From UHGV virus genome UHGV-1339911: a stretch of 12,823 nucleotides of DNA; one strand, written 5' to 3'. The position numbers and the translations under genes are program-made. Source of the stretch: a virus. The notes beneath the pieces are model-generated. The model had not been told where the DNA came from and did not search any database. It worked only from the letters and a program-made list of their open reading frames with translations. Below are positions 1 through 12,823 of this stretch, piece by piece (positions within the stretch are counted from its first letter, which is position 1; every line of letters starts with the position of its first letter).

Positions 1-1272
1 AACGCCAGACAGGTCGAGACAGCAAAGCCAAAAGAGAAAACCTACAAAATGGCCGATGGCGGCGGTTTGTATCTCGAGGTTTCGGCTAAGGGTTCTAAAT
101 ACTGGCGCATGAAATACAGACGCCCCTCTGACAAAAAAGAGGATCGCCTCGCTTTTGGTGTTTGGCCCATGGTGACACTTGCTCAGGCAAGAGCAAAGCG
201 TGACGAGGCTAAAAAGCTCTTAGTGCAGGGCATTGACCCAAAAGCCGAGCAGAAAGAAGCTCAGGCTGAGAATTCGGGCGCATACACTTTCGAAACAATT
301 GCTCGTGAATGGCATGCCAGTAATAAGCGCTGGAGTGAAGACCATCGATCACGCGTTCTGCGCTATCTTGAGCTTTATATTTTTCCTCATATCGGTTCGT
401 CCGACATTCGGCAGCTTAAAACCAGCCACCTGTTAGCCCCGATTAAAAAAGTTGATGCCAGTGGCAAACACGATGTCGCTCAGCGCCTGCAACAGCGCGT
501 CACGGCCATTATGCGTTATGCCGTACAGAACGATTACATCGACTCTAATCCAGCCAGTGACATGGCCGGTGCGTTATCTACAACCAAAGCACGACACTAT
601 CCGGCTTTACCCTCTAGCCGCTTCCCTGAGTTTCTTGCACGTCTTGCTGCATATCGTGGCCGTGTAATGACAAGGATCGCGGTCGAGCTTTCCTTACTAA
701 CTTTTGTACGTTCCAGTGAGTTACGTTTCGCGCGATGGGATGAGTTCGACTTCGATAAATCTCTTTGGCGTATACCTGCAAAGCGAGAAGAAATTAAAGG
801 CGTGCGTTACTCGTATCGTGGCATGAAGATGAAAGAGGAGCATATCGTTCCTCTTAGTCGACAGGCGATGGTTTTGTTAGAGCAACTCAAGCAGATTAGT
901 GGCGATAAAGAGTTACTTTTTCCAGGAGATCACGACTCAACAAAGGTTATGAGTGAAAACACGGTAAACAGCGCATTGCGTGCGATGGGCTATGACACGA
1001 AAATTGAAGTTTGCGGGCATGGATTTAGAACGATGGCTCGTGGTGCGTTGGGTGAGTCAGGTTTGTGGAGTGATGATGCAATTGAGCGTCAATTGAGTCA
1101 CTCTGAGCGTAATAATGTGCGTGCAGCTTATATCCATACTTCTGAGCATTTGGATGAACGTCGTTTAATGGTGCAGTGGTGGGCAGATTTTCTTGATGCA
1201 AATAAAATTGAATTAATATCACCTTTTGATTACGGAAAGACGGTAATATTAAATGAAAACACCCAGCAATAG
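1..1272 (+). CDS. int: P4-family tyrosine recombinase (integrase), 5' end truncated by the window edge
   Basis: ORF track 49..1272, but the frame is open from base 1 with no stop before the ATG at 49, so the true N-terminus lies upstream. N-terminal KxYK-x-DGGGLYLEV-(x8)-W-R-x-K-YR motif is typical of P4-like integrases. C-terminal catalytic signatures HGFRTMARGAL (His-x-x-Arg) and RAAYIHT (Tyr) are present. Stop TAG at 1270-1272. Confidence 0.9.
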   Translation, partial: NARQVETAKPKEKTYKMADGGGLYLEVSAKGSKYWRMKYRRPSDKKEDRLAFGVWPMVTLAQARAKRDEAKKLLVQGIDPKAEQKEAQAENSGAYTFETIAREWHASNKRWSEDHRSRVLRYLELYIFPHIGSSDIRQLKTSHLLAPIKKVDASGKHDVAQRLQQRVTAIMRYAVQNDYIDSNPASDMAGALSTTKARHYPALPSSRFPEFLARLAAYRGRVMTRIAVELSLLTFVRSSELRFARWDEFDFDKSLWRIPAKREEIKGVRYSYRGMKMKEEHIVPLSRQAMVLLEQLKQISGDKELLFPGDHDSTKVMSENTVNSALRAMGYDTKIEVCGHGFRTMARGALGESGLWSDDAIERQLSHSERNNVRAAYIHTSEHLDERRLMVQWWADFLDANKIELISPFDYGKTVILNENTQQ

Positions 1273-1292: not shown

Positions 1293-4200
1293 TTAAATGT
1301 GATTATCCCATTCATTTTTTATTTCGTCGAATTCATTTTTAGAATTGCACATTTTTTCCCATTCCTGAATTATATTTGGTTGTACAATACCTAGACGTTT
1401 GTTGTTGCAATAAATAGATGCTGCTAATTTTGTCGCGCTAAGTTTTTTTTCTAGATAGCTTAAGTGGTCATTATTGTTAATAAATTCTTTCCCATCCTCG
1501 AATAATAGGCCAGTTAAACCGCAATGAATTTTATTCATAAACTCATCAGAAATTGTAAAATCGCTAGAGCTTATTATAAACCTGACTAAATCATAGCATT
1601 CAGGAAGACATGGATCACGATTCCAGGCTATTTTTTCACTAAGTATTGTGATAATTTCTGGTGGGTACTCTTTATTTCTTATTAGTACATATACAGAGTT
1701 TATTGCTTCAATGACTTCTGTTTTAATGAAACTATATAACCCAGAACCTATATCTTTTAATAGGTCGCTTGAATGGTTCTTTTGATTCATTAAAAGCATA
1801 GTTAGTGCAGAATTTACAGGGATTCCTGATTTTTTCATCTTTTCTATCAAGTTTGTAATATGAATAATTGATTCACTATTCAATTTATTATAGTGGATTT
1901 CTAAAATTGTAGTGATAATTCTTGTTATGTTTTTAAATCTATGTGTAAATTCTTTTGATAAATCGTCCCGTTTCTCAAGCCAAATTTTATCATTGGAAAA
2001 CCACTTATTCATTTCAGATATGATCTCAGATAAGATAGTTTCGGACGGGGTTATATGATGAAGGGCACCATTAAGTTCGTTACAATAATTGTCGTTACCA
2101 CCTGTTATAGTAACGCTATTACCATTTTGAATAGGAAAATTATATGTTTTTATAATGGAAATAAATTTATCCTGAATATTTTCATTTTCAGGGTGAAGGT
2201 TATCTATAAAGAAAAATCTATAGTAACCACTATTAATTGGAAATCCATATTCATCGCGTTTAGCCCATAGGTTTTTTATTAGTTTTGAAATATCAGACTT
2301 GTTAAGTAGATCAAGATTATACAATGTAATTAACTTTTGTGATGCTGCTTTTCTTAAATCTTGATCTTCGCTTTTTAAATCATCAATATCTTTTCTGATT
2401 TTGGAAGATGTTATTTTTTTCAATAAACCATTAGGTCGTTTGATAATTGAAGCCAGTAGACATTCAAAAGGAGTAATAAAATTATATTTTTGACCCATAC
2501 CTAAATGATCATTAGAGGGTTTCGACGGATAATCGATAAAAATATCTATGAGGGATATTTTTTGAGAGTCATTCATACTCGCTATAGTACGTCTAAGCAA
2601 ATCCTTTGTCTCAGCAAAATCATAAAACCCCTCAGAGTTATATAACTTAAGAAGAAGGGTTATTATATCTTTTTTCTTTTCAAAAGAAACTTTTGTTACT
2701 AGTCTTGATAATATTTCAGGAATGATTGATAGGGTGGATAACTCTATTTCAAGCTTATCGCTAAGTCTTTCATCTATTTTTTTTAAGATGATTTGTTCGT
2801 ACTTTTTGAAGTATCCATCAAATAAATCTTCAACTTTTTTTCTTTCTAATAAAGAGAGTCTACCACGGTTAAAAAGACTTTTTGCTTTATCTTTATTAAA
2901 TGTTCTAAATATTGCAAAAATAGCGAATTCAGGGGAGTATGGATATATATGTCGGGATGCGTTTTCAACTATGCCACTAAAAATATTCATTCCAGGTATA
3001 TGGAAAGGCAGTCCAAGTTCTTCTGCTAGCAATAGAAAGTTGAAAGCATCTAAGGATTTAAGTTCCGCGGGACTCCCACCAAAATAAGTTGTCACAGTTC
3101 TTCTGTTAAGATCAAAATCAGTATCCTTTGAATTCTCAGATATACCTTGTGGGGATTCTAGTTTGATTTCTAAATACTTAATTTCGTTTTCTGGATCGCT
3201 ACGATATTGAGATAAAGTTGCTAATCTAGAATTGTATTCTGAAGTGTAATCATCGTTCTTGTTATTATTTTTCAAGCTTCTCTTGAACATTCTTAATATA
3301 TAAATGCAATAAGCTTCTTGGGACTCACTTGAATAGTCGATGTTCCTTGATGATAAAAGACTATTTCGGCGAATAGTTGATAAAGTTTCTTCAAGAAGAT
3401 TAATGGCTTCATCGAGCATGCCAAACTCAGCAAGTAGTCCCGCTCTTTTAATTTCATACTGTGGAAGAAGTTTATTTGTTTCCCAATTTGAAAGTTTTGT
3501 TCTGGCTTCATCAAAGTTCAATCTAAAATAAGAATGTAGGATATTCTCGTAATAGAATTCAGATTTAACTTCTGGAGTTAGTCTTTCTAAATTGGGAATC
3601 AGTAAATGATTTAATTCTTTCCATTTTGCTGTGAGATTCTCTTGGCGACAAAATTTCATTAAATTAATAACGATGGCTGAATATTTATCATCCAGATCTT
3701 TGTTTATTATGTTGTTAGTGTATTCGTCTTTATATTTTTCTGTGAGTTTAAATAAAAACTCTGCTGTGTCATTAAATATAGGTAGTAATGCTTTATTTAA
3801 TCGCCAAGTTAACTCATAACCAAAATTAATTTCTGCATATTTTTCCCAAATCACATCGTAGGTAACTACTGCCAACCACTCTCTAGTATCACGCCAAAGA
3901 TTACTGCGATTAGATTCAGGCAAAATAAGCCAGTTAGGATAAGATTTTCTTAATGATCCCCACTCAATAATGCATCGATTTATTTTTTCCATTTTTATTT
4001 CAGGGGTGTCATCGAAAGAAATGTGTTCTCGATTTTTTATTATTGGCCACTCTATTAAATTTTCTTTGTTTTTTGTTTCGTAGAGGGACTCTATAAAATG
4101 TTGATGAGCTAAATAATGATCTTTGCCAAAGTCCCCAAGTAAACTCAAGTCCACGATTGATATGTTTCTTTTTTCAAGCAATTTGCGCTGTGCTTCATTG

Positions 4201-4922
4201 AATGAGAAAAGACCTATCAGATAAATTTTTGGTGAGTTTTCTGCTCCAAGATTATCTCTTATCCAGCCAATCCAGTTAAGGAAATTAGGATCATCACCAG
4301 AAAAACCAATCAAACAAAGAGTATTTTCAATGAGTGATTGCTGTACTGTATTTACAAATGGTGAGTTATCTAAAGGATATTTCCTGTAATCTTCTTCAGT
4401 AATTATAAAAGGCCGCTCTGATGGGAAGCTTCCGTGAAGTTTGATGATCCTAGGTCTTTCAGCATTCATCAAATCACTTTTATTCAGTACCACATCATAT
4501 TTTCTGGAGTCAACATATACACATGCACGCTCAAGCAACGTGTCATAGTTAGTTGTAAAAACATCAACCCATGGTAACGATAAAAGAGAGATGTGTAATT
4601 TAGATGGTTCATACTCTTTATCAGGAACATGATCCATTATCAACTTATCAAGTGTTGCACGGCCGAAGGCGGCTTGTACCTCATCGCCAAGTTTGAGTAC
4701 ATTTAAATATTTGTTTAAATTTTTCTCACAGTAAATATTTTCATAAAAAATATCGCCTAAATCATTCCACATTGGGAATTGTCGTGCCTTGTTTGTTAAA
4801 GGTTTTGCATTTCGACTAAATCCAGCACCAATGAGTATTGCTGCGCGACCATCCCAAAGGCGAGATGATATATTATTTAATAGCGGTTTGATTTTTTTCT
4901 TATTTGTCATTATATATTCCAT
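1293..4922 (-). CDS. Large SIR2-domain fusion protein (defence-associated sirtuin / DSR-like); candidate single-gene NAD-depleting anti-phage protein with an unassigned ~950-aa C-terminal region
   Basis: Uninterrupted 1209-aa ORF. N-terminal ~260 aa carry SIR2_2-type motifs in canonical order: AAILIGAGFS (aa 27-36), VFTTNYDTLLE (aa 121-131, putative catalytic Asn125), IIKLHGS (aa 159-165, putative catalytic His163), CLIGFSGDDPNF (aa 203-214). No Walker A/P-loop seen anywhere in the protein. Gene is visibly AT-rich compared with its neighbours and lies between int and the late operon. Start-codon choice (M1 at 4920-4922 vs M5) is uncertain; no strong SD for either. Confidence 0.8.
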   Translation of the reverse strand: MEYIMTNKKKIKPLLNNISSRLWDGRAAILIGAGFSRNAKPLTNKARQFPMWNDLGDIFYENIYCEKNLNKYLNVLKLGDEVQAAFGRATLDKLIMDHVPDKEYEPSKLHISLLSLPWVDVFTTNYDTLLERACVYVDSRKYDVVLNKSDLMNAERPRIIKLHGSFPSERPFIITEEDYRKYPLDNSPFVNTVQQSLIENTLCLIGFSGDDPNFLNWIGWIRDNLGAENSPKIYLIGLFSFNEAQRKLLEKRNISIVDLSLLGDFGKDHYLAHQHFIESLYETKNKENLIEWPIIKNREHISFDDTPEIKMEKINRCIIEWGSLRKSYPNWLILPESNRSNLWRDTREWLAVVTYDVIWEKYAEINFGYELTWRLNKALLPIFNDTAEFLFKLTEKYKDEYTNNIINKDLDDKYSAIVINLMKFCRQENLTAKWKELNHLLIPNLERLTPEVKSEFYYENILHSYFRLNFDEARTKLSNWETNKLLPQYEIKRAGLLAEFGMLDEAINLLEETLSTIRRNSLLSSRNIDYSSESQEAYCIYILRMFKRSLKNNNKNDDYTSEYNSRLATLSQYRSDPENEIKYLEIKLESPQGISENSKDTDFDLNRRTVTTYFGGSPAELKSLDAFNFLLLAEELGLPFHIPGMNIFSGIVENASRHIYPYSPEFAIFAIFRTFNKDKAKSLFNRGRLSLLERKKVEDLFDGYFKKYEQIILKKIDERLSDKLEIELSTLSIIPEILSRLVTKVSFEKKKDIITLLLKLYNSEGFYDFAETKDLLRRTIASMNDSQKISLIDIFIDYPSKPSNDHLGMGQKYNFITPFECLLASIIKRPNGLLKKITSSKIRKDIDDLKSEDQDLRKAASQKLITLYNLDLLNKSDISKLIKNLWAKRDEYGFPINSGYYRFFFIDNLHPENENIQDKFISIIKTYNFPIQNGNSVTITGGNDNYCNELNGALHHITPSETILSEIISEMNKWFSNDKIWLEKRDDLSKEFTHRFKNITRIITTILEIHYNKLNSESIIHITNLIEKMKKSGIPVNSALTMLLMNQKNHSSDLLKDIGSGLYSFIKTEVIEAINSVYVLIRNKEYPPEIITILSEKIAWNRDPCLPECYDLVRFIISSSDFTISDEFMNKIHCGLTGLLFEDGKEFINNNDHLSYLEKKLSATKLAASIYCNNKRLGIVQPNIIQEWEKMCNSKNEFDEIKNEWDNHI

Positions 4923-4963
4923 CTGTTGTTCATGGCTATACTGAGTGTGCCGCAGTTGCTTCG

Positions 4964-4969
4964 ATTATA
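4964..4969 (-). promoter_or_regulatory. Candidate -10 hexamer (TATAAT on minus strand) about 42 bp upstream of the SIR2-like gene start
   Basis: Minus-strand sequence reads ...GGTCAAAATTTGCTTATAATCGA... ahead of the ATG at 4922. No convincing -35 element; based on the hexamer match only. Confidence 0.3.
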
Positions 4970-5502
4970 AGCAAATTTTGACCGCAGGGACATCATTACG
5001 AATGAAATTTGCACATCTCGGATTATCGTACATATCTATTGTTGAAAAAACATGCTTTCACTGCAACCCTCACTCGCTTCGCAAGGCGTTTTCAATTCAA
5101 ATTCAAACATGGTCTGCGACCGTACGGTATCTGGTGCTGGTCAAGATAAAAAGGTTGATGAAACGTATAGCTGTATCATGCTCACTTTGTATGACAAAGC
5201 GTGCGTGCTAACTGTATATGTGCAGCTTTCCACTGTTATTGCGGAGAACCTGATATTTAATAGGCTATTATCCCCTCAATAGTTGTCCATACCTCCTAAC
5301 AGTACAGCATTATTTGGAAGGGAGTTCTCTTTATCGTATTGATTTTACCTCAACACCTGCGCTGATATATAAGGCTGAGGTTACCATTTTCTTCTTCATC
5401 GCGAGCAGCCCCGCCCGCCTGCCCGCTTCGCTTAACAGACTGGTTTTCATGCACCCCGTAAATCGTCTCAGAAGCCACCACACAAGGGCTTTCGCGTCAA
5501 AA

Positions 5503-5537
5503 ATGGCGCATGAGACTAATGCGTTTTCATGCGCCAT
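5503..5537. repeat. Perfect 11-bp inverted repeat (ATGGCGCATGA ... TCATGCGCCAT) with 13-bp spacer
   Basis: Read directly: 5503-5513 is the exact reverse complement of 5527-5537. Lies in the apparently non-coding stretch between the cargo gene and ogr. Confidence 0.6.
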
Positions 5538-5581
5538 AGATATGCACTCATACGCTCTCAGGCCAGCCAGGGAAAAGGCGT

Positions 5582-5606
5582 AAAAAATCCCGGTACAGGA
5601 CCGGGA
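5582..5606 (-). terminator. Rho-independent terminator ending the sid-psu-ogr late operon
   Basis: 7-bp GC-rich stem (TCCCGGT / ACCGGGA, 5588-5594 and 5600-5606) with 5-nt loop, followed on the minus strand by a run of 6 T (complement of A 5582-5587). Sits 22 nt downstream of the ogr stop. Confidence 0.55.
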
Positions 5607-5628
5607 CTACGTGGGCGTATTTTGCTAA

Positions 5629-5901
5629 TCAGACAGGAATTTGCTGACGGCTTGACAGCTTTGACGCGGAGCCATAGCGGTTGAGAGTTTGCTGTTGTTT
5701 TTCAGGCATTTGTGCTTTGTCTGATTCCCGTTCATTGCGCCAAGGCTTCATAATTATCGTATCCACGCTTTCCAGAGCGGTAAATGTGCAGGAACATTCC
5801 AGATTCTGGCACTGATACCATGAGCGTTTAACCGATGGAGCTTCATAGGCACTGGTTCTGGCGTGAGCGACCGTCCCACATTCAGGACACTTCAGGGCCA
5901 T
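5629..5901 (-). CDS. ogr: Ogr/Delta-family zinc-finger late-gene transcriptional activator (single Ogr-like unit, 91 aa)
   Basis: MALKCPECGTVAHARTS...YQCQNLECSCTF...ESV matches the Ogr/Delta Cys4 zinc-finger signature (C-x2-C ... AHARTS ... QCQN-x2-C). I place the start at the internal ATG 5899-5901, which has a strong SD (AAGGAGG about 8 nt upstream) and sits immediately after the psu stop; the ORF-track start at 6003 overlaps psu and lacks an SD. Confidence 0.85.
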   Translation of the reverse strand: MALKCPECGTVAHARTSAYEAPSVKRSWYQCQNLECSCTFTALESVDTIIMKPWRNERESDKAQMPEKQQQTLNRYGSASKLSSRQQIPV

Positions 5902-5902
5902 A

Positions 5903-6457
5903 TCAGTACCCTCCTTTTTCATTAAGTCGGTTAAGGCGGGCCAGGAAAACTTTATGTTGTGCTGGGGTGAAACTGGCTGAAGCATCAGCGCACATTGATG
6001 CATCCACCGTTAATCCGGTTTCGTCGATAATGCTCTTGTATGCTGCTGAAATTACCGGAGTACGCACTTCCGTTTGTCGGGCTACAGCGGTTCGTAATAT
6101 TTTCATTGCCGCCTCAAGCCCGTATGGAGCGCAAAGAAAAGGAGCCAGAGCGTCAGTGAGTGCATCACCATGCTCGCTCATGAAGTTTTCCGTTGCGCTT
6201 GTAACACAACTCTCCAGCACAATCTGGTGAGCATAAAGACCATCCCGTGCAGCACAGTTAATCTGCCATTCGAGGACTGCAAGACGCTCACGAAGATCCT
6301 CAAGCTGGCTGGCATATGCTGCCAGTTTTTCTTCAGTATCCAGCAGAGCCGCCAGACGAAGCTGGCAGGTACTTTGCGTATTACGTAGTGTCAGCCAGCT
6401 TTTTATCGCCGAGCGGTAATCGTTGAGTGCTTCCTGAGTAATGCTTCCGGCATTCAT
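5903..6457 (-). CDS. psu: Psu-like protein (polarity suppression / capsid decoration protein of P4-type satellites)
   Basis: 184 aa. Segments FMSEHGDALTDALAPFL and the C-terminal FTPAQHKVF resemble P4 Psu as I recall it (FMQQHGTALAAALAPEL, FTPAQNMIF). Start overlaps the sid stop (ATGA), implying translational coupling. Confidence 0.75.
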   Translation of the reverse strand: MNAGSITQEALNDYRSAIKSWLTLRNTQSTCQLRLAALLDTEEKLAAYASQLEDLRERLAVLEWQINCAARDGLYAHQIVLESCVTSATENFMSEHGDALTDALAPFLCAPYGLEAAMKILRTAVARQTEVRTPVISAAYKSIIDETGLTVDASMCADASASFTPAQHKVFLARLNRLNEKGGY

Positions 6458-7206
6458 TTCTTCTCGCCCCCTTTAACCATGTCACGCTGTTTAAGCATCC
6501 GTGAACGCGCTGCAGGGCTGGGGGATTGTCTGGCATCTTGGATGGCTTTATCGTCCGCATAAATGCTGATCCCCGGCAGGGTAATATCATCCGTTGAAGA
6601 TACGTTACAGGACAGTGCCGGAGTGGTGAGTTGCTCGCTGATAAATTGCTTCAGCACACTTTCGGGGTCGTTTACGGTATGAACTACACCGATAACAGCA
6701 GAAGCGCTTCGGCCCAGAGTCATTTTCAGCAGTCCAAGGATCTGAATAAGTTTCTGGCCGTGTTCCTTCATAAACTCATTCCAGAGCCACACTGCATGAG
6801 TTTCAATCAGGCGATTATGCTCACTGATGTAGTGGTTTGCAGCATCCGCAGTTTTCCAGGGCAGGAATTCATTTTCTGCCGCCTGAGCTGCCAGCAAATC
6901 TTCGAACTCATCCAGTGTTTCGCGTCCGAGGGCGATTTCTGCCCGCAGTTTTTTCATGCGTGGCGTCATATTTCCCTGATTCTCACGAAACAGGTTTCGC
7001 CATTCATCATTAAGCGCCTGCGTTTCCGTTTTTGTATCTTCCTGACGTTTACGGATAGTTTCAATCATTGCAGCAGCTTCAGTTTGTTTTCGCCGTTCTT
7101 CCTGCCAGACAGCTTTTGCTACCTTAACTTTATCCACCGCTTCGCGAATTTTCGGTGGGAGGGAGGGTGTAATGTTTGCATCAGGGATCTGGTTAACAGT
7201 AGTCAT
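6454..7206 (-). CDS. sid: Sid-like capsid size-determination (external scaffold) protein
   Basis: 250 aa, charged and helix-prone, first gene of the leftward operon, immediately upstream of psu and ogr/delta. Size and position match P4 Sid (~244 aa). Assignment is mainly from synteny and size; I cannot confirm sequence similarity without a search. GGAG lies 5 nt before the ATG. Confidence 0.6.
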   Translation of the reverse strand: MTTVNQIPDANITPSLPPKIREAVDKVKVAKAVWQEERRKQTEAAAMIETIRKRQEDTKTETQALNDEWRNLFRENQGNMTPRMKKLRAEIALGRETLDEFEDLLAAQAAENEFLPWKTADAANHYISEHNRLIETHAVWLWNEFMKEHGQKLIQILGLLKMTLGRSASAVIGVVHTVNDPESVLKQFISEQLTTPALSCNVSSTDDITLPGISIYADDKAIQDARQSPSPAARSRMLKQRDMVKGGEKK

Positions 7207-7278
7207 GACTGCTCCGGTAGTGTTTTATTGTCGTGTCAATTGTGCCGGTGCCCATACAAGCGCACTACCGAGGGGGAT

Positions 7279-7310
7279 TGTGCCAGTGACAGAACAATGA
7301 CCTTGTTCTG
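7279..7310 (-). promoter_or_regulatory. Candidate Ogr/Delta-activated late promoter element (TGT-N12-ACA dyad) overlapping an 8-bp palindrome, upstream of sid
   Basis: TGT (7279-7281)-N12-ACA (7294-7296) matches the activator-site consensus described for P2/P4 late promoters. Its centre is about 80 bp upstream of the sid ATG, compatible with a site centred near -55 and a short leader. Adjacent perfect palindrome CAGAACAA-tgacc-TTGTTCTG at 7290-7310. Confidence 0.45.
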
Positions 7311-7360
7311 GCTAGCCAGAGAAATGCGTCATGTCTGATCTTCAACTTTCCTTTAATACA

Positions 7361-7580
7361 TACTATTCACTACTGTTCACTTTGATAAAAAAATTGATAA
7401 TACAGCTAGTTAAGAGGTGAAGGGTTGACAAGGCAGTATTCAGTGACTGTTCATGAGTGTTCATCGGAAGGCTGCGTGATTTATGATTTTTTTTCATCAA
7501 AAGTGAAATTTTTATTCCTAATGATTATTTTATTATTGTTCCTCACAACTATTCACCACTCTTCAGTAGTATTCAACAGA
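7361..7580. repeat. Array of iteron-like octamers related to TGTTCACC (ori-like) in the AT-rich control region
   Basis: TATTCACT 7364-7371 and TGTTCACT 7374-7381 (10-bp phasing); TGTTCATG 7448-7455 and TGTTCATC 7458-7465 (10-bp phasing); TTCACC at 7552-7557 and on the minus strand at 7416-7421. No ORF of 60 aa or more in 7339-8060 on this strand. Confidence 0.4.
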
Positions 7581-8118
7581 TGATGAAATAGACGATTTTT
7601 CTTTGCCGGGAAATAACATGATTCCCCCTTTTCCTGGTGTTGCATTTCAATCTGATTTTTATAAAACTAGAACTGTTCGGTCTTTTATGAATTTATTTGT
7701 ATATATTTTTAGGTTAAGAATGCGTGGTTATTGATTTTATGCGGTTTTAATGCTTCTGAGCTTGATGCAATTCATGAGTATATCCTGAAGTTAGGTTTGC
7801 AATGTAAAACCATATGTAGAAATTGTGCACCCCTGCTGAATGGGTTGCGGTTTCAGTACCATTAAGTTCTATGACTTATGGGGTAGTAACCCCTGGATGA
7901 AAGTTAGTTCCTATTAATGCCCCTGTATTTATAGTTCGCAGGCATAATATTTATCATGCCATTTTATGTGGTTTGATATAGTTTTAAATTCCATTAAATC
8001 AATATGTGACACTAAATAAATAATGGGTGCGTAAGCGAGCAATATATACATAATAAGGAGCTACCTGAATCCGGGGGGATTTATCCGGACTGATGAAGGA
8101 ATTAAAGAGGGTAGATAA

Positions 8119-8379
8119 ATGCATGATATTTCTGTTTCTGCGCCAGCTCCGGCTGCGCCATTATTTCCTGTGCTGAACCAGCATGAGCGATTTTTACGTC
8201 TTCCCGAGGTGATGCATTTATGCGGCTTGTCCCGCTCAACTATATACGACCTGATAAGCCGCGATGCTTTCCCGAAGCAGATCCCGCTTGGTGGTAAAAA
8301 TGTTGCCTGGGCACAGTCAGAGGTAAGCGCATGGATGGCGGATCGTATAAGTGCCCGCGGACGGGGATGTGATGCATAA
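8119..8379 (+). CDS. alpA: AlpA/Vis-family phage DNA-binding regulator (excisionase-like HTH)
   Basis: 86 aa. [53 protein letters not shown] is the typical AlpA/Vis helix-turn-helix core. SD GAGGG sits 7 nt upstream of the ATG. Confidence 0.85.
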
Positions 8380-8473
8380 TGATGCCTGAACGCATTAATC
8401 CCCTTTTTTCTGGCTTGCATCCTGCAGTCATTTCCAGGTATAGTTTTCCCGCTGCCGCAAAATCGGCTGCCGG

Positions 8474-8725
8474 GCGTAGGAACCCGAGTTACTTATTGGC
8501 GACACCAGACGCGCCGTGCGTCTTTTTTTACGTCGTTGCTCAGGCACACCCATTTTTCGGGCTGCGGTGCTTATACCTTAGTCCCTGTCAGATAATGGTG
8601 GTCCGGGCGGGGCAGCCTTCGGGCTGGCCGGTTTCCAATAAGGCCGGTATTCCTACCCCCGTCTGGGCTACCACCCATGAGCGTAGGAACTCCGGTGGTG
8701 GCATTTACCGCGACTTATTGGAGGT
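8474..8725 (+). promoter_or_regulatory. Candidate P4 CI-RNA-like immunity leader (seqA / seqB / seqC-like complementary repeats)
   Basis: Direct repeats GCGTAGGAAC...ACTTATTGG at 8474-8499 and 8681-8721. Between them, 8635-8658 (CCAATAAGGCCGGTATTCCTACCC) is approximately their reverse complement. The second direct repeat overlaps the GGAGG SD of the downstream small gene. The region is GC-rich and its conceptual translation (first ~118 aa of ORF 8379..8924) is low-complexity. Confidence 0.35.
8507..8529 (+). terminator. Intrinsic terminator-like hairpin plus T7 tract inside the alpA-downstream leader
   Basis: Stem AGACGC / GCGTCT (8507-8512 and 8518-8523), loop GCCGT, followed by 7 T (8523-8529). 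Lies inside the ORF-track ORF 8379..8924, arguing against that ORF's 5' part being translated. Confidence 0.5.
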
Positions 8726-8732
8726 TGCCCTT

Positions 8733-8924
8733 ATGGCTACGATCCTCGCCCCTTCACATCCTCAATTTATATTTGTTTTTGCCGCCGTTCGTCGTGCAGA
8801 ACGTAAACCACGTATCAGTATGCTGCGTATCGTCGCCAGCAATGAGCATCATGCACGTCTTTCACTGGTCCATGAGTATGTGCTTTGCCTTGCTGCTCGC
8901 CTGCCTGTCCGGGAGGTGATGTGA
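8733..8924 (+). CDS. Small early-operon protein, possibly Icd-like (host cell division inhibitor family)
   Basis: 63-aa short form starting at ATG 8733 with GGAGG 8 nt upstream ([63 protein letters not shown]). The C-terminal ...ARLPV... pattern resembles Icd-like proteins of P4-type elements as I recall them. Family assignment is tentative. Confidence 0.45.
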
Positions 8925-9145
8925 TGAATCACGCCGCAATCTCTTATGACGATATTGTCCGCCTGAAGCATCTTCGTAACGTGGGGGAGTTTGTCACCGG
9001 AATGGCTGTTCTTCAGGATTGCTACGAAAAACCTGCCGGTGCTCAATGTGAGCAACTGGCTTCCCTGATTTATCTGATGACAGAGCAACTTGATGGCGTG
9101 GTACAGCGTTGCCAGGATGACCTGATGAACATGGAGGTGGTGTAA
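8924..9145 (+). CDS. Hypothetical small protein (73 aa), early operon
   Basis: Start ATG 8924 overlaps the upstream stop (ATGA) with GGGAGG 7 nt upstream. Placed at [10 protein letters not shown] rather than the ORF-track start at 8885, which lacks an SD. No recognisable domain. Confidence 0.55.
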
Positions 9146-9474
9146 TGAAATCACGCACCCTTTCCCTTTCCCTTTCACTTCGGGTAGCGTTGTATCGCCG
9201 CGCGGTAGCCTGCGCCTGGTTGAGTGCCTGCTATCAGCAAAACCGCCATCTGCAGCTCACTCTGGATGAAATTGAAACCGCTATTGCCCGTGAGCTTGAA
9301 GGATTTTATCTGCGACAGCACGGGCAAACAAAAGGCATGGAAATCGCCTGCGCTCTGCTTTCAGACCTGATGGAATCCGGCCCTCTAATGTCCTGTCCCG
9401 CACTCTCCCAGCTCGGAATAGCCGTAATGGATGAGTTATGCGTCCGTCACATCAAAAAGCCGGTTTTACACTGA
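9145..9474 (+). CDS. Hypothetical small protein (109 aa), early operon, immediately upstream of the primase gene
   Basis: Start overlaps the previous stop (TAATG) with GGAGGTGG upstream. Position is analogous to the small genes preceding alpha in P4, but homology was not verified. Confidence 0.55.
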
Positions 9475-9488
9475 GGGAGAACTGCGTC

Positions 9489-11819
9489 ATGTCAGGAATG
9501 AAAGTCAGTCAGGCCGTGAAGGCTGCCCGCGGTCACTGGGCTAAGATTCTGCCAGCGCTGGGCGTGAATATATTGAAAAATCGCCATCAGCCTTGCCCGG
9601 TCTGTGGCGGTAAAGATCGTTTTCGCTTCGACGATCAGGAAGGACGCGGAACATGGTTCTGCAATCAGTGCGGTGCCGGGGATGGTATAGCGCTTGTCAC
9701 CAGGGCACTGAATGTGGATATCAGTGAAGCAGCTGACAGGATACATGGACTGACACATGGTCTGTCTGTAGTTAATTCCGAAGTCAGGGCGTTAACCGCC
9801 GATACCGATAGCGGGAAAGATGCAGCAGCACTTGCCGCGCGACTGCTGCAAGCCTCACGTGAATCTGCCGGAAACACTTATCTTACACATAAAGGTTTCC
9901 CGGAGCATATTTGCCATGAGCTGACTTCAGCTCATAAAACCGGTGGGGTGATGTTCCGCCCCGGTGATTTGATCGTCCCGCTCTATAACGCTGACGGGGA
10001 GCTGGTGAATATTCAGCTTATCAGTGGCAATGGTAGCAAGTGTTTTCTTAAAGGAGGTCAGGTTAAGGAGGCCTATCATCTGATAGAAGGGGGCGGGAGT
10101 TCTTTAAGAAGGATGTGGATTGCGGAAGGTTACGCCACGGCGCTTACCATTCATCATCTGACAGGAGAAGCCGTCATGGTGGCATTTTCGTCGGTCAACT
10201 TTCTTTCTCTGGCCAGCGTTGCCCATAACAAGTATCCGGGATATCAGTTAATTATTGCAGCGGACCGCGATCTGAATGGTTCAGGCCAGAACAGGGCTGA
10301 AACTGCTGCAAAAGCGTGTCAGTGTGACATTGTGCTGCCACCGGTTTTTGGTGACTGGAATGATGCGCTTACCCAATACGGAGAGGAATCCACCCGGAAG
10401 GCAATTCTTGAGGCTTTGAAGCCACATAATGCCAGTCCTTTCGACACAATGAGTGAAGCAGAATTCACAGCGATGAGTGTCAGCGAAAAAGCTCAGAGGG
10501 TTCGGGAGCATTACAGGGATGCACTGGCGGTTGATCCGAACGGGCAGCTTTTATCCCGCTACGAGTCTGGAGCGTGGAAAGTGATTTCTCAGTCAGATTT
10601 TTCCCGAGATGTCGCAGCCCTTTTCCAGCGCCTCGGTGCACCGTTTTCCTCAGGAAAAATTGCCTCACTGGTGGAAACATTAAAGTTAATTGTTCCGCAG
10701 CAGCAAAATCCGGCACGTCATCTGATTGGTTTTCGTAATGGCGTCCTCGATACGCGAACAGGGCTTTTTAGTCCGCACTGTAAAGAGAACTGGCTGCGTA
10801 CCCTGTGTGAAGTCGATTTCACGCCACCGGTAAAGGGGGAAACGCTTGAAACTCATGCCCCGGCATTCTGGCGCTGGCTGGACCGGGCTGCCGGACACAA
10901 GCCAGCTAAACGCGACATTATTCTTGCGGCGTTATTTATGGTGCTGGCGAACCGCTATGACTGGCAGCTCTTTCTGGAAGTGACTGGCCCTGGTGGAAGT
11001 GGCAAAAGTATTCTGGCTGAAATTGCGACCATGCTTGCTGGAGAGGATAACGCCACCTCTGCGACCATTGAAACGCTGGAGTCCCCGCGAGAACGTGCGG
11101 CTCTGATAGGTTTTTCTCTTATTCGCCTGCCTGATCAGGAGAAGTGGAGCGGCGACGGCGCCGGGCTTAAGGCTATAACTGGTGGCGATGCGGTATCGGT
11201 GGACCCCAAGTATCAGAATGCTTATTCAACACATATTCCGGCGGTTATCCTGGCCGTAAATAATAATCCTATGCGCTTCACTGATCGTAGTGGTGGTGTG
11301 TCCCGCAGGAGAGTGATTCTGCATTTTCCTGAGCAGATAGCACCGGAAGAACGCGATCCGCAGCTGAAAGATAAAATTGCTCGAGAACTGGCTGTGATTG
11401 TTCGCCAGCTCATGCAGCGTTTCAGCGATCCGATGAGCGCCAGAACATTGCTTCAGTCGCAGCAGAATTCAGATGAGGCTCTCACCATCAAGCGTGATGC
11501 TGATCCAGCATTTGATTTTTGTGGCTATCTTGAGGCATTACCTGACACCAACGGTATGTTTATGGGGAACGCTAATATTGTCCCACGCCAGCCACGTACC
11601 TACCTTTACCATGCCTACCTCGTATACATGGAGGCTAATGGCTATAAAAACATCCTGAGTCTTACGATGTTTGGCAAAGGGTTGCCAGTCATGCTGAAGG
11701 AGTACGGGCTACATTATGAGAAACGGCGAACTAATCAGGGAATGCAAACTAACCTCACTTTGAAAGAGGAGAGTAATGCAGACTGGCTGCCCAAGTGTGA
11801 TGAGCCAATATTAAAATAA
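9489..11819 (+). CDS. P4 alpha-type bifunctional DNA primase/helicase (zinc-binding primase domain, TOPRIM, P-loop helicase)
   Basis: Zn-finger CPVCGG...FCNQCG; TOPRIM-like acidic motifs (WIAEGYATALT, IIAADRD); Walker A VTGPGGSGKS. I prefer the start at ATG 9489 (MSGMKVSQ...), preceded by GAGGGAGA, over the ORF-track start at 9438. Confidence 0.9.
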   Translation: MSGMKVSQAVKAARGHWAKILPALGVNILKNRHQPCPVCGGKDRFRFDDQEGRGTWFCNQCGAGDGIALVTRALNVDISEAADRIHGLTHGLSVVNSEVRALTADTDSGKDAAALAARLLQASRESAGNTYLTHKGFPEHICHELTSAHKTGGVMFRPGDLIVPLYNADGELVNIQLISGNGSKCFLKGGQVKEAYHLIEGGGSSLRRMWIAEGYATALTIHHLTGEAVMVAFSSVNFLSLASVAHNKYPGYQLIIAADRDLNGSGQNRAETAAKACQCDIVLPPVFGDWNDALTQYGEESTRKAILEALKPHNASPFDTMSEAEFTAMSVSEKAQRVREHYRDALAVDPNGQLLSRYESGAWKVISQSDFSRDVAALFQRLGAPFSSGKIASLVETLKLIVPQQQNPARHLIGFRNGVLDTRTGLFSPHCKENWLRTLCEVDFTPPVKGETLETHAPAFWRWLDRAAGHKPAKRDIILAALFMVLANRYDWQLFLEVTGPGGSGKSILAEIATMLAGEDNATSATIETLESPRERAALIGFSLIRLPDQEKWSGDGAGLKAITGGDAVSVDPKYQNAYSTHIPAVILAVNNNPMRFTDRSGGVSRRRVILHFPEQIAPEERDPQLKDKIARELAVIVRQLMQRFSDPMSARTLLQSQQNSDEALTIKRDADPAFDFCGYLEALPDTNGMFMGNANIVPRQPRTYLYHAYLVYMEANGYKNILSLTMFGKGLPVMLKEYGLHYEKRRTNQGMQTNLTLKEESNADWLPKCDEPILK

Positions 11820-12090: not shown

Positions 12091-12180
12091 GAATGCTGGG
12101 GGCACAAAAGGGGGCATAATTGAATTAACTATAATTAAATTTCAATTTTTACAATAAGTTAAATTTATGTGCGAGTCCGG

Positions 12181-12212
12181 CCTTCGCACCTTCGCACCTT
12201 CGCACCATCGGA
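12181..12212 (+). repeat. Tandem 8-bp repeat (CCTTCGCA) x3 plus a degenerate fourth unit
   Basis: Read directly: CCTTCGCA at 12181-12188, 12189-12196, 12197-12204, then CCATCGGA. Confidence 0.8.
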
Positions 12213-12221
12213 ACATCAATA

Positions 12222-12244
12222 GACGTCAACGGACGTTTTTTTTA
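12222..12244 (+). terminator. Terminator-like hairpin followed by a T9 run, with no annotated upstream ORF
   Basis: GACGTC-AACG-GACGT stem-loop immediately followed by nine T (12236-12244). Could end a small RNA or a short unannotated transcript. Confidence 0.4.
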
Positions 12245-12270
12245 TGACTGAAATCCGCGCCACACAAGGC

Positions 12271-12317
12271 TTTTCGCTATTTTTCGCTCAACCTAAGTCA
12301 ACCTACATCAACTTACT
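12271..12317 (+). repeat. 10-bp-phased direct repeats: TTTTCGCT(AT/CA) x2 then TCAAC(C/T)TA x3
   Basis: TTTTCGCTAT 12271-12280, TTTTCGCTCA 12281-12290; TCAACCTAAG 12288-12297, TCAACCTACA 12298-12307, TCAACTTACT 12308-12317. Helical-turn phasing suggests a protein-binding array. Confidence 0.6.
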
Positions 12318-12409
12318 GATGTGGATACAGCTACAGCTGCGGCTATATCCCGATTCGATAATGTTTGTACCCACACAAAACCCTTGAAAGGCTACAAGGC
12401 TGAAATTGT

Positions 12410-12595
12410 CTAAACCATAGAGATGATTTTTATGATCCAGTCTTTCTCTTGTTGAGATAGTTCCAGTTTGCTCACTCGTGTTAAGAAGGTATTGATCACC
12501 TGAACATCCGAATTGGTGAGCCTATTTAATAGAGCGGGTGGTATACCTTTACTAACAATTGCTTTGCGGTGACTTTCGTAGTTTTTATTACTCAT
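12410..12595 (-). CDS. Small hypothetical protein (61 aa)
   Basis: ORF with a good SD (GAGGA 6 nt upstream of the ATG at 12593-12595). No recognisable motif; could be a fragment or a small regulator. Confidence 0.4.
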   Translation of the reverse strand: MSNKNYESHRKAIVSKGIPPALLNRLTNSDVQVINTFLTRVSKLELSQQEKDWIIKIISMV

Positions 12596-12823
12596 TGGTG
12601 ATCCTCAAATATCATTGTATAGCGGCATTGATCGTTTCCAGCAACCTTTACTTACTCACTTCAAACTGCATCCTCGTAGACTGTTCCACTACAATAATCG
12701 AAAAGGCGCGGATGTCCATTCAGGTATCCCGCTAATACGTATAGCAATAACAATGGTTTATGCGGTGCGCGCTGTTCACCCTTATGCCAGATTTTTATAT
12801 TGGCAATTGCCTGCTGTAGCGAT

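What the first reader, a model, noticed from the sequence alone, without database searches (positions are those of the whole stretch)
1293..4922. 1209-aa SIR2-domain fusion protein in the P4 satellite cargo slot: candidate single-gene NAD-depleting anti-phage system
Seen in sequence: the N-terminal ~260 aa carry the four SIR2_2-type motifs in canonical order and spacing (GAGFS aa 32-36; TTNYD with Asn125; KLHGS with His163; GFSGDD aa 206-211). The Asn-to-His spacing of 38 residues is what I recall for the catalytic Asn/His pair of DSR2. Established knowledge: SIR2-domain proteins (ThsA of Thoeris, DSR1/DSR2, SIR2-HerA) defend by NAD+ depletion on phage sensing, and P4-like satellites carry defence cargo in a hotspot next to int and psu. 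Inference: this is a single-protein abortive-infection effector of the DSR type. No partner gene is evident; flanking small ORFs look non-coding. Whether it is a known DSR subtype or a new SIR2 fusion cannot be decided without a search.
Basis: partly seen in the sequence, partly recalled or inferred. Interest (0 to 1): 0.85.

Follow-up and report, generated by a model that had tools for sequence, protein, structure and literature searches.

The report
Known Dsr2 defence gene in P4 satellite
The large gene is a member of the already catalogued Dsr2 family of single-protein anti-phage sirtuins, predicted to destroy NAD+ when a phage is sensed.

Summary
The protein matches the Dsr2 models end to end: PADLOC 1698.7 bits, and the NCBIfam equivalog NF041819 at 1439.3 bits against a cutoff of 1400. 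An identical protein is in public databases. RefSeq annotates the gene as dsr2 in 4 of 5,426 complete E. coli genomes. It is 75% identical to Cronobacter sakazakii Dsr2. It lies alone between int and the delta-psu-sid genes of a P4-like satellite integrated at tRNA-Leu, which is the published psu-int defence hotspot. More divergent alleles (84% and 54% identity) occupy the same slot elsewhere.

One caveat concerns mechanism. The mechanistically studied B. subtilis DSR2 is not detectable by sequence. By structure, only the SIR2 domain and the overall SIR2-plus-alpha-solenoid architecture clearly match. The sensor region resembles DSR2 no better than it resembles generic HEAT-repeat proteins. 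NAD+ depletion is therefore a strong inference, and tail-tube sensing is only a hypothesis.

Novelty: already known. Interest: low.

The parts
1293..4922 (-). dsr2 coding sequence (1209-aa maximal ORF). The probable true start is Met5 at 4910, giving 1205 aa.
   Evidence: ORF listed. PADLOC Dsr2 scores 1698.7 bits over 5-1207. NCBIfam NF041819 scores 1439.3 against a cutoff of 1400. RefSeq annotates it as dsr2 at 99.9% nucleotide identity. The start at Met5 is supported.
4098..4895 (-). N-terminal SIR2 (sirtuin-type NADase) effector domain, about aa 10-275. Asn125 is codon 4548-4550 and His163 is codon 4434-4436.
1296..4097 (-). All-helical middle and C-terminal alpha-solenoid (HEAT/ARM-like) region, aa 276-1209. 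This is the presumed oligomerisation scaffold and phage-protein sensor.
   Evidence: AF2 models have pLDDT 80.9 and 84.9 and are all-helical after aa ~275. This region alone scores 1066.5 bits against PADLOC Dsr2. It gives generic HEAT-solenoid fold matches. It is the most divergent part of the family, with the last 379 aa at mean identity 32% against 70% for SIR2.
4923..5399 (-). Cargo-specific upstream non-coding region that travels with dsr2. It contains a conserved TATAAT (4964-4969) about 42 nt before the first ATG, which is the presumed native promoter and leader.
   Evidence: This region occurs only in the 4 genomes that carry dsr2, whereas 5400-5628 occurs in 847 genomes. It is shared with the locus of the 84% Enterobacter allele. 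Sequence shown. Its small ORFs have no family hits.
49..1272 (+). P4-type tyrosine integrase, convergent with dsr2. A hairpin at 1262-1277 lies between the two gene ends.
   Evidence: Pfam Arm-DNA-bind_3, Phage_int_M and Phage_integrase. Terminator-like hairpin found. tRNA-Leu lies just upstream in the complete genome.
5400..5628 (.). Conserved P4 backbone segment downstream of delta, forming the boundary of the variable cargo slot. It includes the GC-rich core GGCAGGCGGGCGGGGC.
   Evidence: Present in 847 of 5,426 E. coli genomes at 80-99% identity. Conserved in all three aligned loci.
5629..7206 (-). Late operon of the satellite: sid-like gene (6454-7206), psu (5903-6457) and ogr/delta (5629-6003).
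   Evidence: Pfam Psu at 7e-35, Ogr_Delta at 3.5e-16 and a Psu-like hit at 3e-07. PHROG 6165 at 1.6e-93.
8119..11819 (+). Satellite early region: alpA (8119-8379), isrK RNA (8451-8528), C4/CI immunity RNA (8591-8678), DUF5375 (9145-9474) and alpha primase-helicase (9438-11819).
   Evidence: Pfam hits. Rfam isrK at 72.1 bits and C4 at 82.3 bits.
12172..12186 (+). attR core: a 15-nt exact repeat of the 3' part of tRNA-Leu. The satellite's right end is at about 12190.
   Evidence: Window identity to NZ_CP030939 ends at 12190.

Best explanation
The gene encodes a Dsr2-family defence-associated sirtuin, a single-protein anti-phage system carried as the sole cargo in the variable slot of a P4-like satellite integrated at tRNA-Leu. 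The slot lies between int and the cos-proximal end of the delta-psu-sid operon.

Shown here: family membership over the whole length, an intact SIR2 active site, the absence of a partner gene, and the satellite context.

Inferred from the family: the protein is made constitutively from its own upstream promoter in the satellite lysogen and is held inactive as an oligomer. A phage protein produced during infection then binds the fast-evolving C-terminal alpha-solenoid and releases the N-terminal SIR2 domain. That domain hydrolyses NAD+ to ADP-ribose and nicotinamide using Asn125/His163. [quoted passage not shown]

The trigger for this enterobacterial clade is unknown. A monomeric siphovirus-type tail tube protein, as shown for B. 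subtilis DSR2, is the leading but weakly supported candidate.
For: PADLOC Dsr2 scores 1698.7 bits end to end, and the NCBIfam equivalog NF041819 is above its cutoff. The non-SIR2 930 aa alone still score 1066.5 bits against Dsr2 and match no other defence family. RefSeq annotates the gene as dsr2 at 99.9% identity. The 90% cluster contains E. coli, Shigella and Salmonella proteins named Dsr2. The protein is 75% identical to Cronobacter sakazakii Dsr2.

The catalytic residues N, D, H and the GAGFS serine are invariant in 32 homologues. The SIR2 fold is closest to the proven NADases ThsA and KomC. All of the top 50 full-length Foldseek hits are B. subtilis DSR2 chains, aligned colinearly over about 1,150 columns at E down to 9e-16.

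The conservation gradient fits a conserved effector with a variable sensor. Single-gene occupancy of the same slot by the 84% and 54% alleles is seen. The psu-int hotspot and its single-gene SIR2_2 entries are published (PMC9122126). DSR2 NADase activity, N133/H171 dependence, tail-tube activation and abortive infection are published for B. subtilis.
Confidence: 0.88

Rival explanations
1. The protein has the Dsr2 NADase effector but is triggered by something other than a tail tube protein. Candidates are another structural protein, a replication protein or a host perturbation. On this view, the sensor solenoid of the ~1,200-aa enterobacterial clade is not orthologous to the B. subtilis DSR2 C-terminal domain.
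For: B. subtilis DSR2 is not detectable by sequence. The sensor region matches DSR2 no better than it matches karyopherins. The protein is about 200 aa longer than B. subtilis DSR2, which is 1005 aa. The C-terminal region evolves fast even between close alleles.
Against: All top full-length structural hits are DSR2, and the alignments are colinear. Within the SIR2-less search, DSR2 has the best TM-score, rmsd and identity of all listed hits. The literature treats both proteins as one DSR2 gene family.
Confidence: 0.4
2. The protein is a Thoeris ThsA-like or other SIR2 effector that needs a signalling partner which has been lost or is encoded elsewhere.
For: The closest solved sequences are ThsA proteins (E 2e-11). 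The PADLOC ThsA models hit at 4.9e-28.
Against: The ThsA matches cover only the SIR2 half of the models (profile positions 3-222 of 478). The remaining 930 aa are an alpha-solenoid that scores 1066 bits against Dsr2 and matches nothing else. No TIR or other partner gene lies in the slot, in this window or in three related loci.
Confidence: 0.02
3. The protein is a housekeeping or regulatory sirtuin deacylase, or a decaying and non-functional passenger gene with no defence role.
For: Some database entries carry generic names such as 'SIR2 family NAD-dependent protein deacylase'. The gene is rare, occurring in 4 of 5,426 E. coli genomes.
Against: The 3.6-kb ORF is intact in AT-rich DNA. It is 99.9% conserved across unrelated strains. 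The catalytic residues are invariant. The location is a dedicated defence hotspot of a satellite. The SIR2_2 subtype is the NADase-type clade shared with ThsA and KomC.
Confidence: 0.03

Closest known systems
Dsr2, the defence-associated sirtuin 2 family of Gao et al. 2020, as modelled by NCBIfam NF041819 and PADLOC PDLC02184. An example is the 1,207-aa Cronobacter sakazakii Dsr2.
   Same: The match is end to end with the same length. The protein is 75% identical to the Cronobacter protein. An identical protein is already in public databases, and near-identical E. coli, Shigella and Salmonella proteins of its 90% cluster are named Dsr2. It is a single-gene system.
   Different: Nothing of substance differs. 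This allele has not itself been tested as far as I could find. The NCBIfam score clears the equivalog cutoff only narrowly (1439 against 1400).
Bacillus subtilis 29R DSR2 (Garb et al. 2022; cryo-EM structures 8K98, 8WKN, 8WY8 and others)
   Same: Both have an N-terminal SIR2 domain with the Asn...His pair 38 residues apart, followed by a helical middle region and a HEAT-like solenoid. DSR2 chains are the top full-length structural hits. Both are single-protein systems.
   Different: Identity is only 14-16% and the protein is undetectable by HMMER. This protein is about 200 aa longer. The sensor-region similarity cannot be distinguished from generic solenoid similarity. The trigger, the oligomeric state and DSAD1 sensitivity are unknown for this clade.
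Thoeris ThsA (SIR2-SLOG)
   Same: It has the closest SIR2 domain by sequence and by fold, and presumably the same NADase chemistry.
   Different: There is no SLOG/STALD ligand-binding domain and no ThsB partner. Activation would be by protein sensing rather than by a cyclic ADPR isomer signal.
P4-like satellite psu-int defence hotspot (Rousset et al. 2022)
   Same: The position is the same and the backbone genes are the same. The variable cargo is bounded by conserved sequence. Single-gene SIR2_2 cargos are listed in that study's Table S1A.
   Different: The SIR2 protein cloned in that study (pFR88, E. coli M605) is a different protein. I could not confirm that this exact accession appears in their table.

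Membership tests
Dsr2 (Gao-type; NCBIfam NF041819 / PADLOC PDLC02184) | Whole-protein match to the curated family model above its cutoff, covering the full length | tested here: met
   NCBIfam scores 1439.3 bits against a cutoff of 1400, covering protein 8-1205 and model 1-1215. PADLOC scores 1698.7 bits, covering 5-1207 and 3-1221 of 1222.
Dsr2 (Gao-type; NCBIfam NF041819 / PADLOC PDLC02184) | The family-specific non-SIR2 region also matches, so membership does not rest on the shared SIR2 domain alone | tested here: met
   aa 280-1209 alone score 1066.5 bits against Dsr2 profile positions 280-1221. No other PADLOC family matches at E<=1.
Dsr2 (Gao-type; NCBIfam NF041819 / PADLOC PDLC02184) | N-terminal SIR2 domain with intact catalytic Asn and His | tested here: met
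   Pfam SIR2_2 at 3e-24. N125 and H163 are present and invariant in 32 homologues.
Dsr2 (Gao-type; NCBIfam NF041819 / PADLOC PDLC02184) | Single-gene system with no conserved partner | tested here: met
   No credible ORF exists between int and delta other than dsr2. The same holds for the 84% and 54% alleles.
Dsr2 (Gao-type; NCBIfam NF041819 / PADLOC PDLC02184) | Confers phage resistance that depends on the SIR2 active site | not testable with these tools
   This needs cloning and plaque assays. The primary paper (PMC7985843) is not held.
B. subtilis-type DSR2 (Garb 2022, structurally characterised) | Detectable sequence homology to the characterised protein | tested here: not met
   No DSR2 chain appears among PDB hits at E<=10, either with the single sequence or with a 32-sequence profile. 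The chains are present in the library.
B. subtilis-type DSR2 (Garb 2022, structurally characterised) | Same overall architecture: SIR2, then a helical middle domain, then a HEAT-like C-terminal solenoid | tested here: met
   The top 50 Foldseek hits are all DSR2 chains, with E down to 9e-16 and 1,110-1,250 aligned columns. SIR2 fragments reach TM 0.73. Domain layout is from PMC11850899.
B. subtilis-type DSR2 (Garb 2022, structurally characterised) | Sensor (MID/CTD) specifically related to the DSR2 tail-tube-binding region, beyond generic solenoid resemblance | tested here: inconclusive
B. subtilis-type DSR2 (Garb 2022, structurally characterised) | Activation by monomeric phage tail tube protein, tetramer assembly, and inhibition by DSAD1 | not testable with these tools
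   These are biochemical properties. They are published only for the B. subtilis protein.
Thoeris ThsA | C-terminal SLOG/STALD signal-binding domain and an adjacent TIR-domain ThsB | tested here: not met
   The ThsA model matches stop at profile position 222 of 478. The C-terminal region is an alpha-solenoid. No neighbouring TIR gene is present.
DSR1 | Match to a Dsr1 model or a Dsr1-type sensor | tested here: not met
   No Dsr1 model appears among the PADLOC hits at E<=1, for either the whole protein or the C-terminal 930 aa.
P4-like satellite hotspot cargo (Rousset 2022) | Location between psu and int of an element that carries the P4 hallmark genes | tested here: met
   The hallmarks present are int, sid-like, psu, ogr/delta, alpA, DUF5375 and alpha primase, plus the C4 and isrK RNAs. 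tRNA-Leu attL is seen in the complete genome and the attR core in the window.
P4-like satellite hotspot cargo (Rousset 2022) | Variable cargo bounded by conserved backbone | tested here: met
   Window 5400-5628 is present in 847 genomes, while 4923-5399 plus dsr2 are present in only 4.

The most novel reading that the evidence does not exclude
The ~1,200-aa enterobacterial Dsr2 clade may share only the SIR2 effector and a generic solenoid architecture with B. subtilis DSR2. Its sensor would then recognise a different phage cue. As P4 cargo, it would be tuned to spare the helper phage P2 while killing competitor phages. 'Dsr2' would then be two mechanistically distinct systems under one name.
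Probability: 0.3. Interest if true: 0.4.

Novelty: already known. Interest (0 to 1): 0.15.

Why it matters
As a discovery it matters little. The gene is already named dsr2 in RefSeq, the family was described in 2020, and defence cargo in the P4 slot was described in 2022. Two points have modest value. First, this is a clean natural example of Dsr2 as the sole cargo of a P4-like satellite, with at least three divergent alleles (100%, 84% and 54% identity) swapped into the same slot. Second, the mechanistic model built on B. subtilis DSR2 (tail-tube sensing) cannot be transferred by sequence to this clade. The sensor-region relationship is unresolved, so the trigger of the enterobacterial Dsr2 remains an open but routine experimental question.

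Tried and rejected
(1) I searched for the P2/P4 cos 19-mer recalled from memory and found no match within 3 mismatches. My recollection may be wrong, so I make no cos claim beyond a GC-rich conserved core.

(2) Megablast of the satellite backbone against the phage collection gave only trivial hits and did not recover P4 itself. P4-like identity therefore rests on gene content and the Rfam RNAs.

(3) Gao et al. 2020 (PMC7985843) is not held, and literature searches found no trigger or phage-range data for the enterobacterial Dsr2. My recollection is that the tested DSR2 came from Cronobacter sakazakii and protected against lambda. That is unverified, so I do not use it as evidence.

(4) I considered whether this protein is the SIR2 system cloned by Rousset et al. 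(pFR88). It is not, because the N-terminal sequences differ. The accession WP_170939248 is absent from their supplements as held.

(5) I looked for a hidden partner gene or small protein in 4923-5628. None of the five candidate ORFs hits a PHROG family. The 230 nt next to delta are satellite backbone and the rest is non-coding cargo leader.

(6) I considered a Thoeris or DSR1 assignment and rejected both.

(7) I searched the phage collection for Dsr2 by tblastn. The only hit was a SIR2-domain match in a metagenomic phage.
Full report
OBSERVATION. The window contains an intact ORF at 1293..4922 on the minus strand encoding 1209 aa. It lies in a stretch of 28-35% G+C, flanked by DNA of about 50% G+C. 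A script confirmed all four motifs at the stated residues: GAGFS 32-36, TTNYD 123-127, KLHGS 161-165 and GFSGDD 206-211. That puts Asn125 and His163 38 residues apart. Pfam SIR2_2 matches aa 121-256 at E=3e-24. The only correction is the start codon. PGAP, a 54%-identical allele and the Cronobacter homologue all begin at Met5, so the protein is probably 1205 aa.

WHAT IT IS. The PADLOC Dsr2 model matches end to end (1698.7 bits; protein 5-1207, profile 3-1221 of 1222). The NCBIfam equivalog NF041819 'anti-phage defense-associated sirtuin Dsr2' scores 1439.3 bits against a curated cutoff of 1400. The match does not depend on the SIR2 domain. Residues 280-1209 alone score 1066.5 bits against the Dsr2 profile and match no other defence family.

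The DNA is present at 99.9% identity in 4 of 5,426 complete E. coli genomes, where RefSeq already calls it dsr2. A lower-stringency search finds no further alleles in that collection. An identical 1205-aa protein is in the public protein collection. Its 90% cluster of 216 members includes E. coli, Shigella sonnei and Salmonella proteins named Dsr2. The protein is 75% identical over its full length to the 1,207-aa Cronobacter sakazakii Dsr2. Full-length homologues extend down to about 34% identity in many phyla.

CONTEXT. The neighbouring genes are a P4-type integrase (49-1272), a sid-like gene, psu, ogr/delta (5629-7206), alpA, a DUF5375 gene and an alpha primase-helicase. Rfam finds the P4 immunity RNAs C4 and isrK. 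In the complete genome NZ_CP030939 the element sits directly next to tRNA-Leu. A 15-nt repeat of the tRNA 3' end lies at window 12172-12186 and marks attR.

The cargo boundaries can be placed. Window 5400-5628 is satellite backbone, found in 847 genomes. In contrast, 4923-5399 plus dsr2 occur only in the 4 dsr2 genomes. The cargo is therefore dsr2 plus about 480 nt of its own upstream sequence. That sequence is shared with the locus of the 84% Enterobacter allele and includes a conserved TATAAT about 42 nt before the ORF. None of the small ORFs in the gap has any family match. A hairpin lies between the convergent ends of int and dsr2.

Alleles of 84% identity (Enterobacter hormaechei) and 54% identity (E. 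coli) occupy the same slot as single genes in other P4-like elements. This is the psu-int hotspot described by Rousset et al. 2022. Their Table S1A lists single-gene SIR2_2 cargos. The SIR2 protein they cloned (pFR88) is a different protein.

An AlphaFold model (pLDDT 80.9, pTM 0.70) shows a Rossmann-type domain up to about residue 275, followed by about 930 all-helical residues. A Foldseek search of the PDB returns B. subtilis DSR2 chains as all of the top 50 hits. The alignments are colinear over 1,110-1,250 columns with E down to 9e-16. Global TM is low (about 0.3), as expected for a long multi-domain protein. Isolated SIR2 fragments give TM 0.73.

Conservation falls from the effector to the C-terminus. 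Against the 84% allele, identity is 94-99% in the first 200 aligned residues of the SIR2 domain and 74-79% in the last 300 aa. Across 31 homologues, the mean is 70% for SIR2 and 32% for the last 379 aa. This is the pattern expected of a conserved effector joined to a sensor under diversifying pressure.

The best-supported mechanism is therefore the family's. The protein is an autoinhibited oligomer. Its solenoid binds a phage protein made during infection, which opens the SIR2 pocket. NAD+ is then cleaved and the infection is aborted. All of these steps are published only for B. subtilis DSR2 and are inferred here.

THE CAVEAT. The Dsr2 models used for annotation and the mechanistically studied B. 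subtilis DSR2 are very distant. Neither phmmer with the protein nor hmmsearch with a 32-sequence profile retrieves any DSR2 chain from the PDB, even at E<=10. Those chains are in the library.

The architecture is therefore shared, but a specific relationship between the sensor regions is not demonstrable with these tools. Tail-tube sensing, tetramerisation and DSAD1 sensitivity should not be assumed for this clade. I found no experimental data on its trigger in the held literature, and I could not read Gao et al. 2020.

RIVALS. A Thoeris-like reading fails because the ThsA models match only their SIR2 half and there is no SLOG domain or ThsB. DSR1 models do not match. A housekeeping deacylase or a decaying passenger gene is unlikely, given the intact ORF, the invariant active site, the near-identity across unrelated strains and the location in a defence hotspot. 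The only serious alternative concerns the trigger rather than the kind of system.

VERDICT. The open question it posed is resolved in favour of 'known': this is a RefSeq-annotated dsr2, a member of a family described in 2020, in a satellite hotspot described in 2022. Novelty is 'already known' and interest is low (0.15). The residual open point is what the enterobacterial Dsr2 clade senses, and whether it truly shares its sensor with B. subtilis DSR2. That is a routine experimental question.

Noticed in passing
window 1293-1500; locus L005 7001-7208: E. coli 23AR0998 keeps the integrase and only the last 208 nt of dsr2. These are followed directly by IS1A and a truncated fimF. An IS1-mediated deletion appears to have removed the rest of the gene, the satellite and the adjacent chromosome up to fim.
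   Followed up: partly
window 4910-4922: The maximal ORF starts 4 codons upstream of the start used by PGAP and by the homologues (Met5). Neither ATG has an obvious Shine-Dalgarno sequence.
   Followed up: partly
window 4923-5399: About 480 nt of non-coding sequence travel with dsr2 as part of the cargo. They are roughly two-thirds identical by eye to the upstream region of the 84% Enterobacter allele. This is long for a simple promoter and leader, and no RNA family or ORF was found in it.
   Followed up: partly
window 8379-8924: The Rfam C4 antisense RNA (8591-8678) and isrK (8451-8528) lie inside the ORF that PGAP annotates as an 'Icd-like cell division inhibitor'. The RNA genes and the protein call overlap on the same strand.
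   Followed up: no
window 12191-12823: To the right of attR the window diverges from NZ_CP030939, which has hsdR there. It instead matches a chromosomal region annotated as a phosphorothioated-DNA-binding restriction endonuclease, fully covered in 776 genomes. A 61-aa ORF at 12410-12595 (-) matches phrog_25874 at E 4e-47. The satellite therefore sits beside another variable defence region.
   Followed up: partly
window 5629-7206 compared with L004 5727-7601: Backbone gene order differs between P4-like elements carrying Dsr2 alleles. Here, and in the Enterobacter loci, the order is sid-like, psu, delta. In the E. coli element with the 54% allele, ogr/delta lies between the two Psu-fold genes.
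   Followed up: no
window 7250-8100: A second low-GC stretch (33-35% G+C) lies between the sid-like gene and alpA. It has no ORF longer than 52 aa and is probably the divergent regulatory region of the satellite.
   Followed up: partly
dsr2 aa 1179-1205 (window ~1305-1390): The extreme C-terminus carries an invariant motif, W..xC....EF......W (W1188, C1192, E1197, F1198 and W1205 in full-length numbering). It stands out in an otherwise poorly conserved sensor region, and its function is unknown.
   Followed up: no
phage record PV036459.1 4478-5290: A metagenomic gut phage encodes a protein 45% identical to the SIR2 domain only (aa 24-280) of this Dsr2.
   Followed up: no
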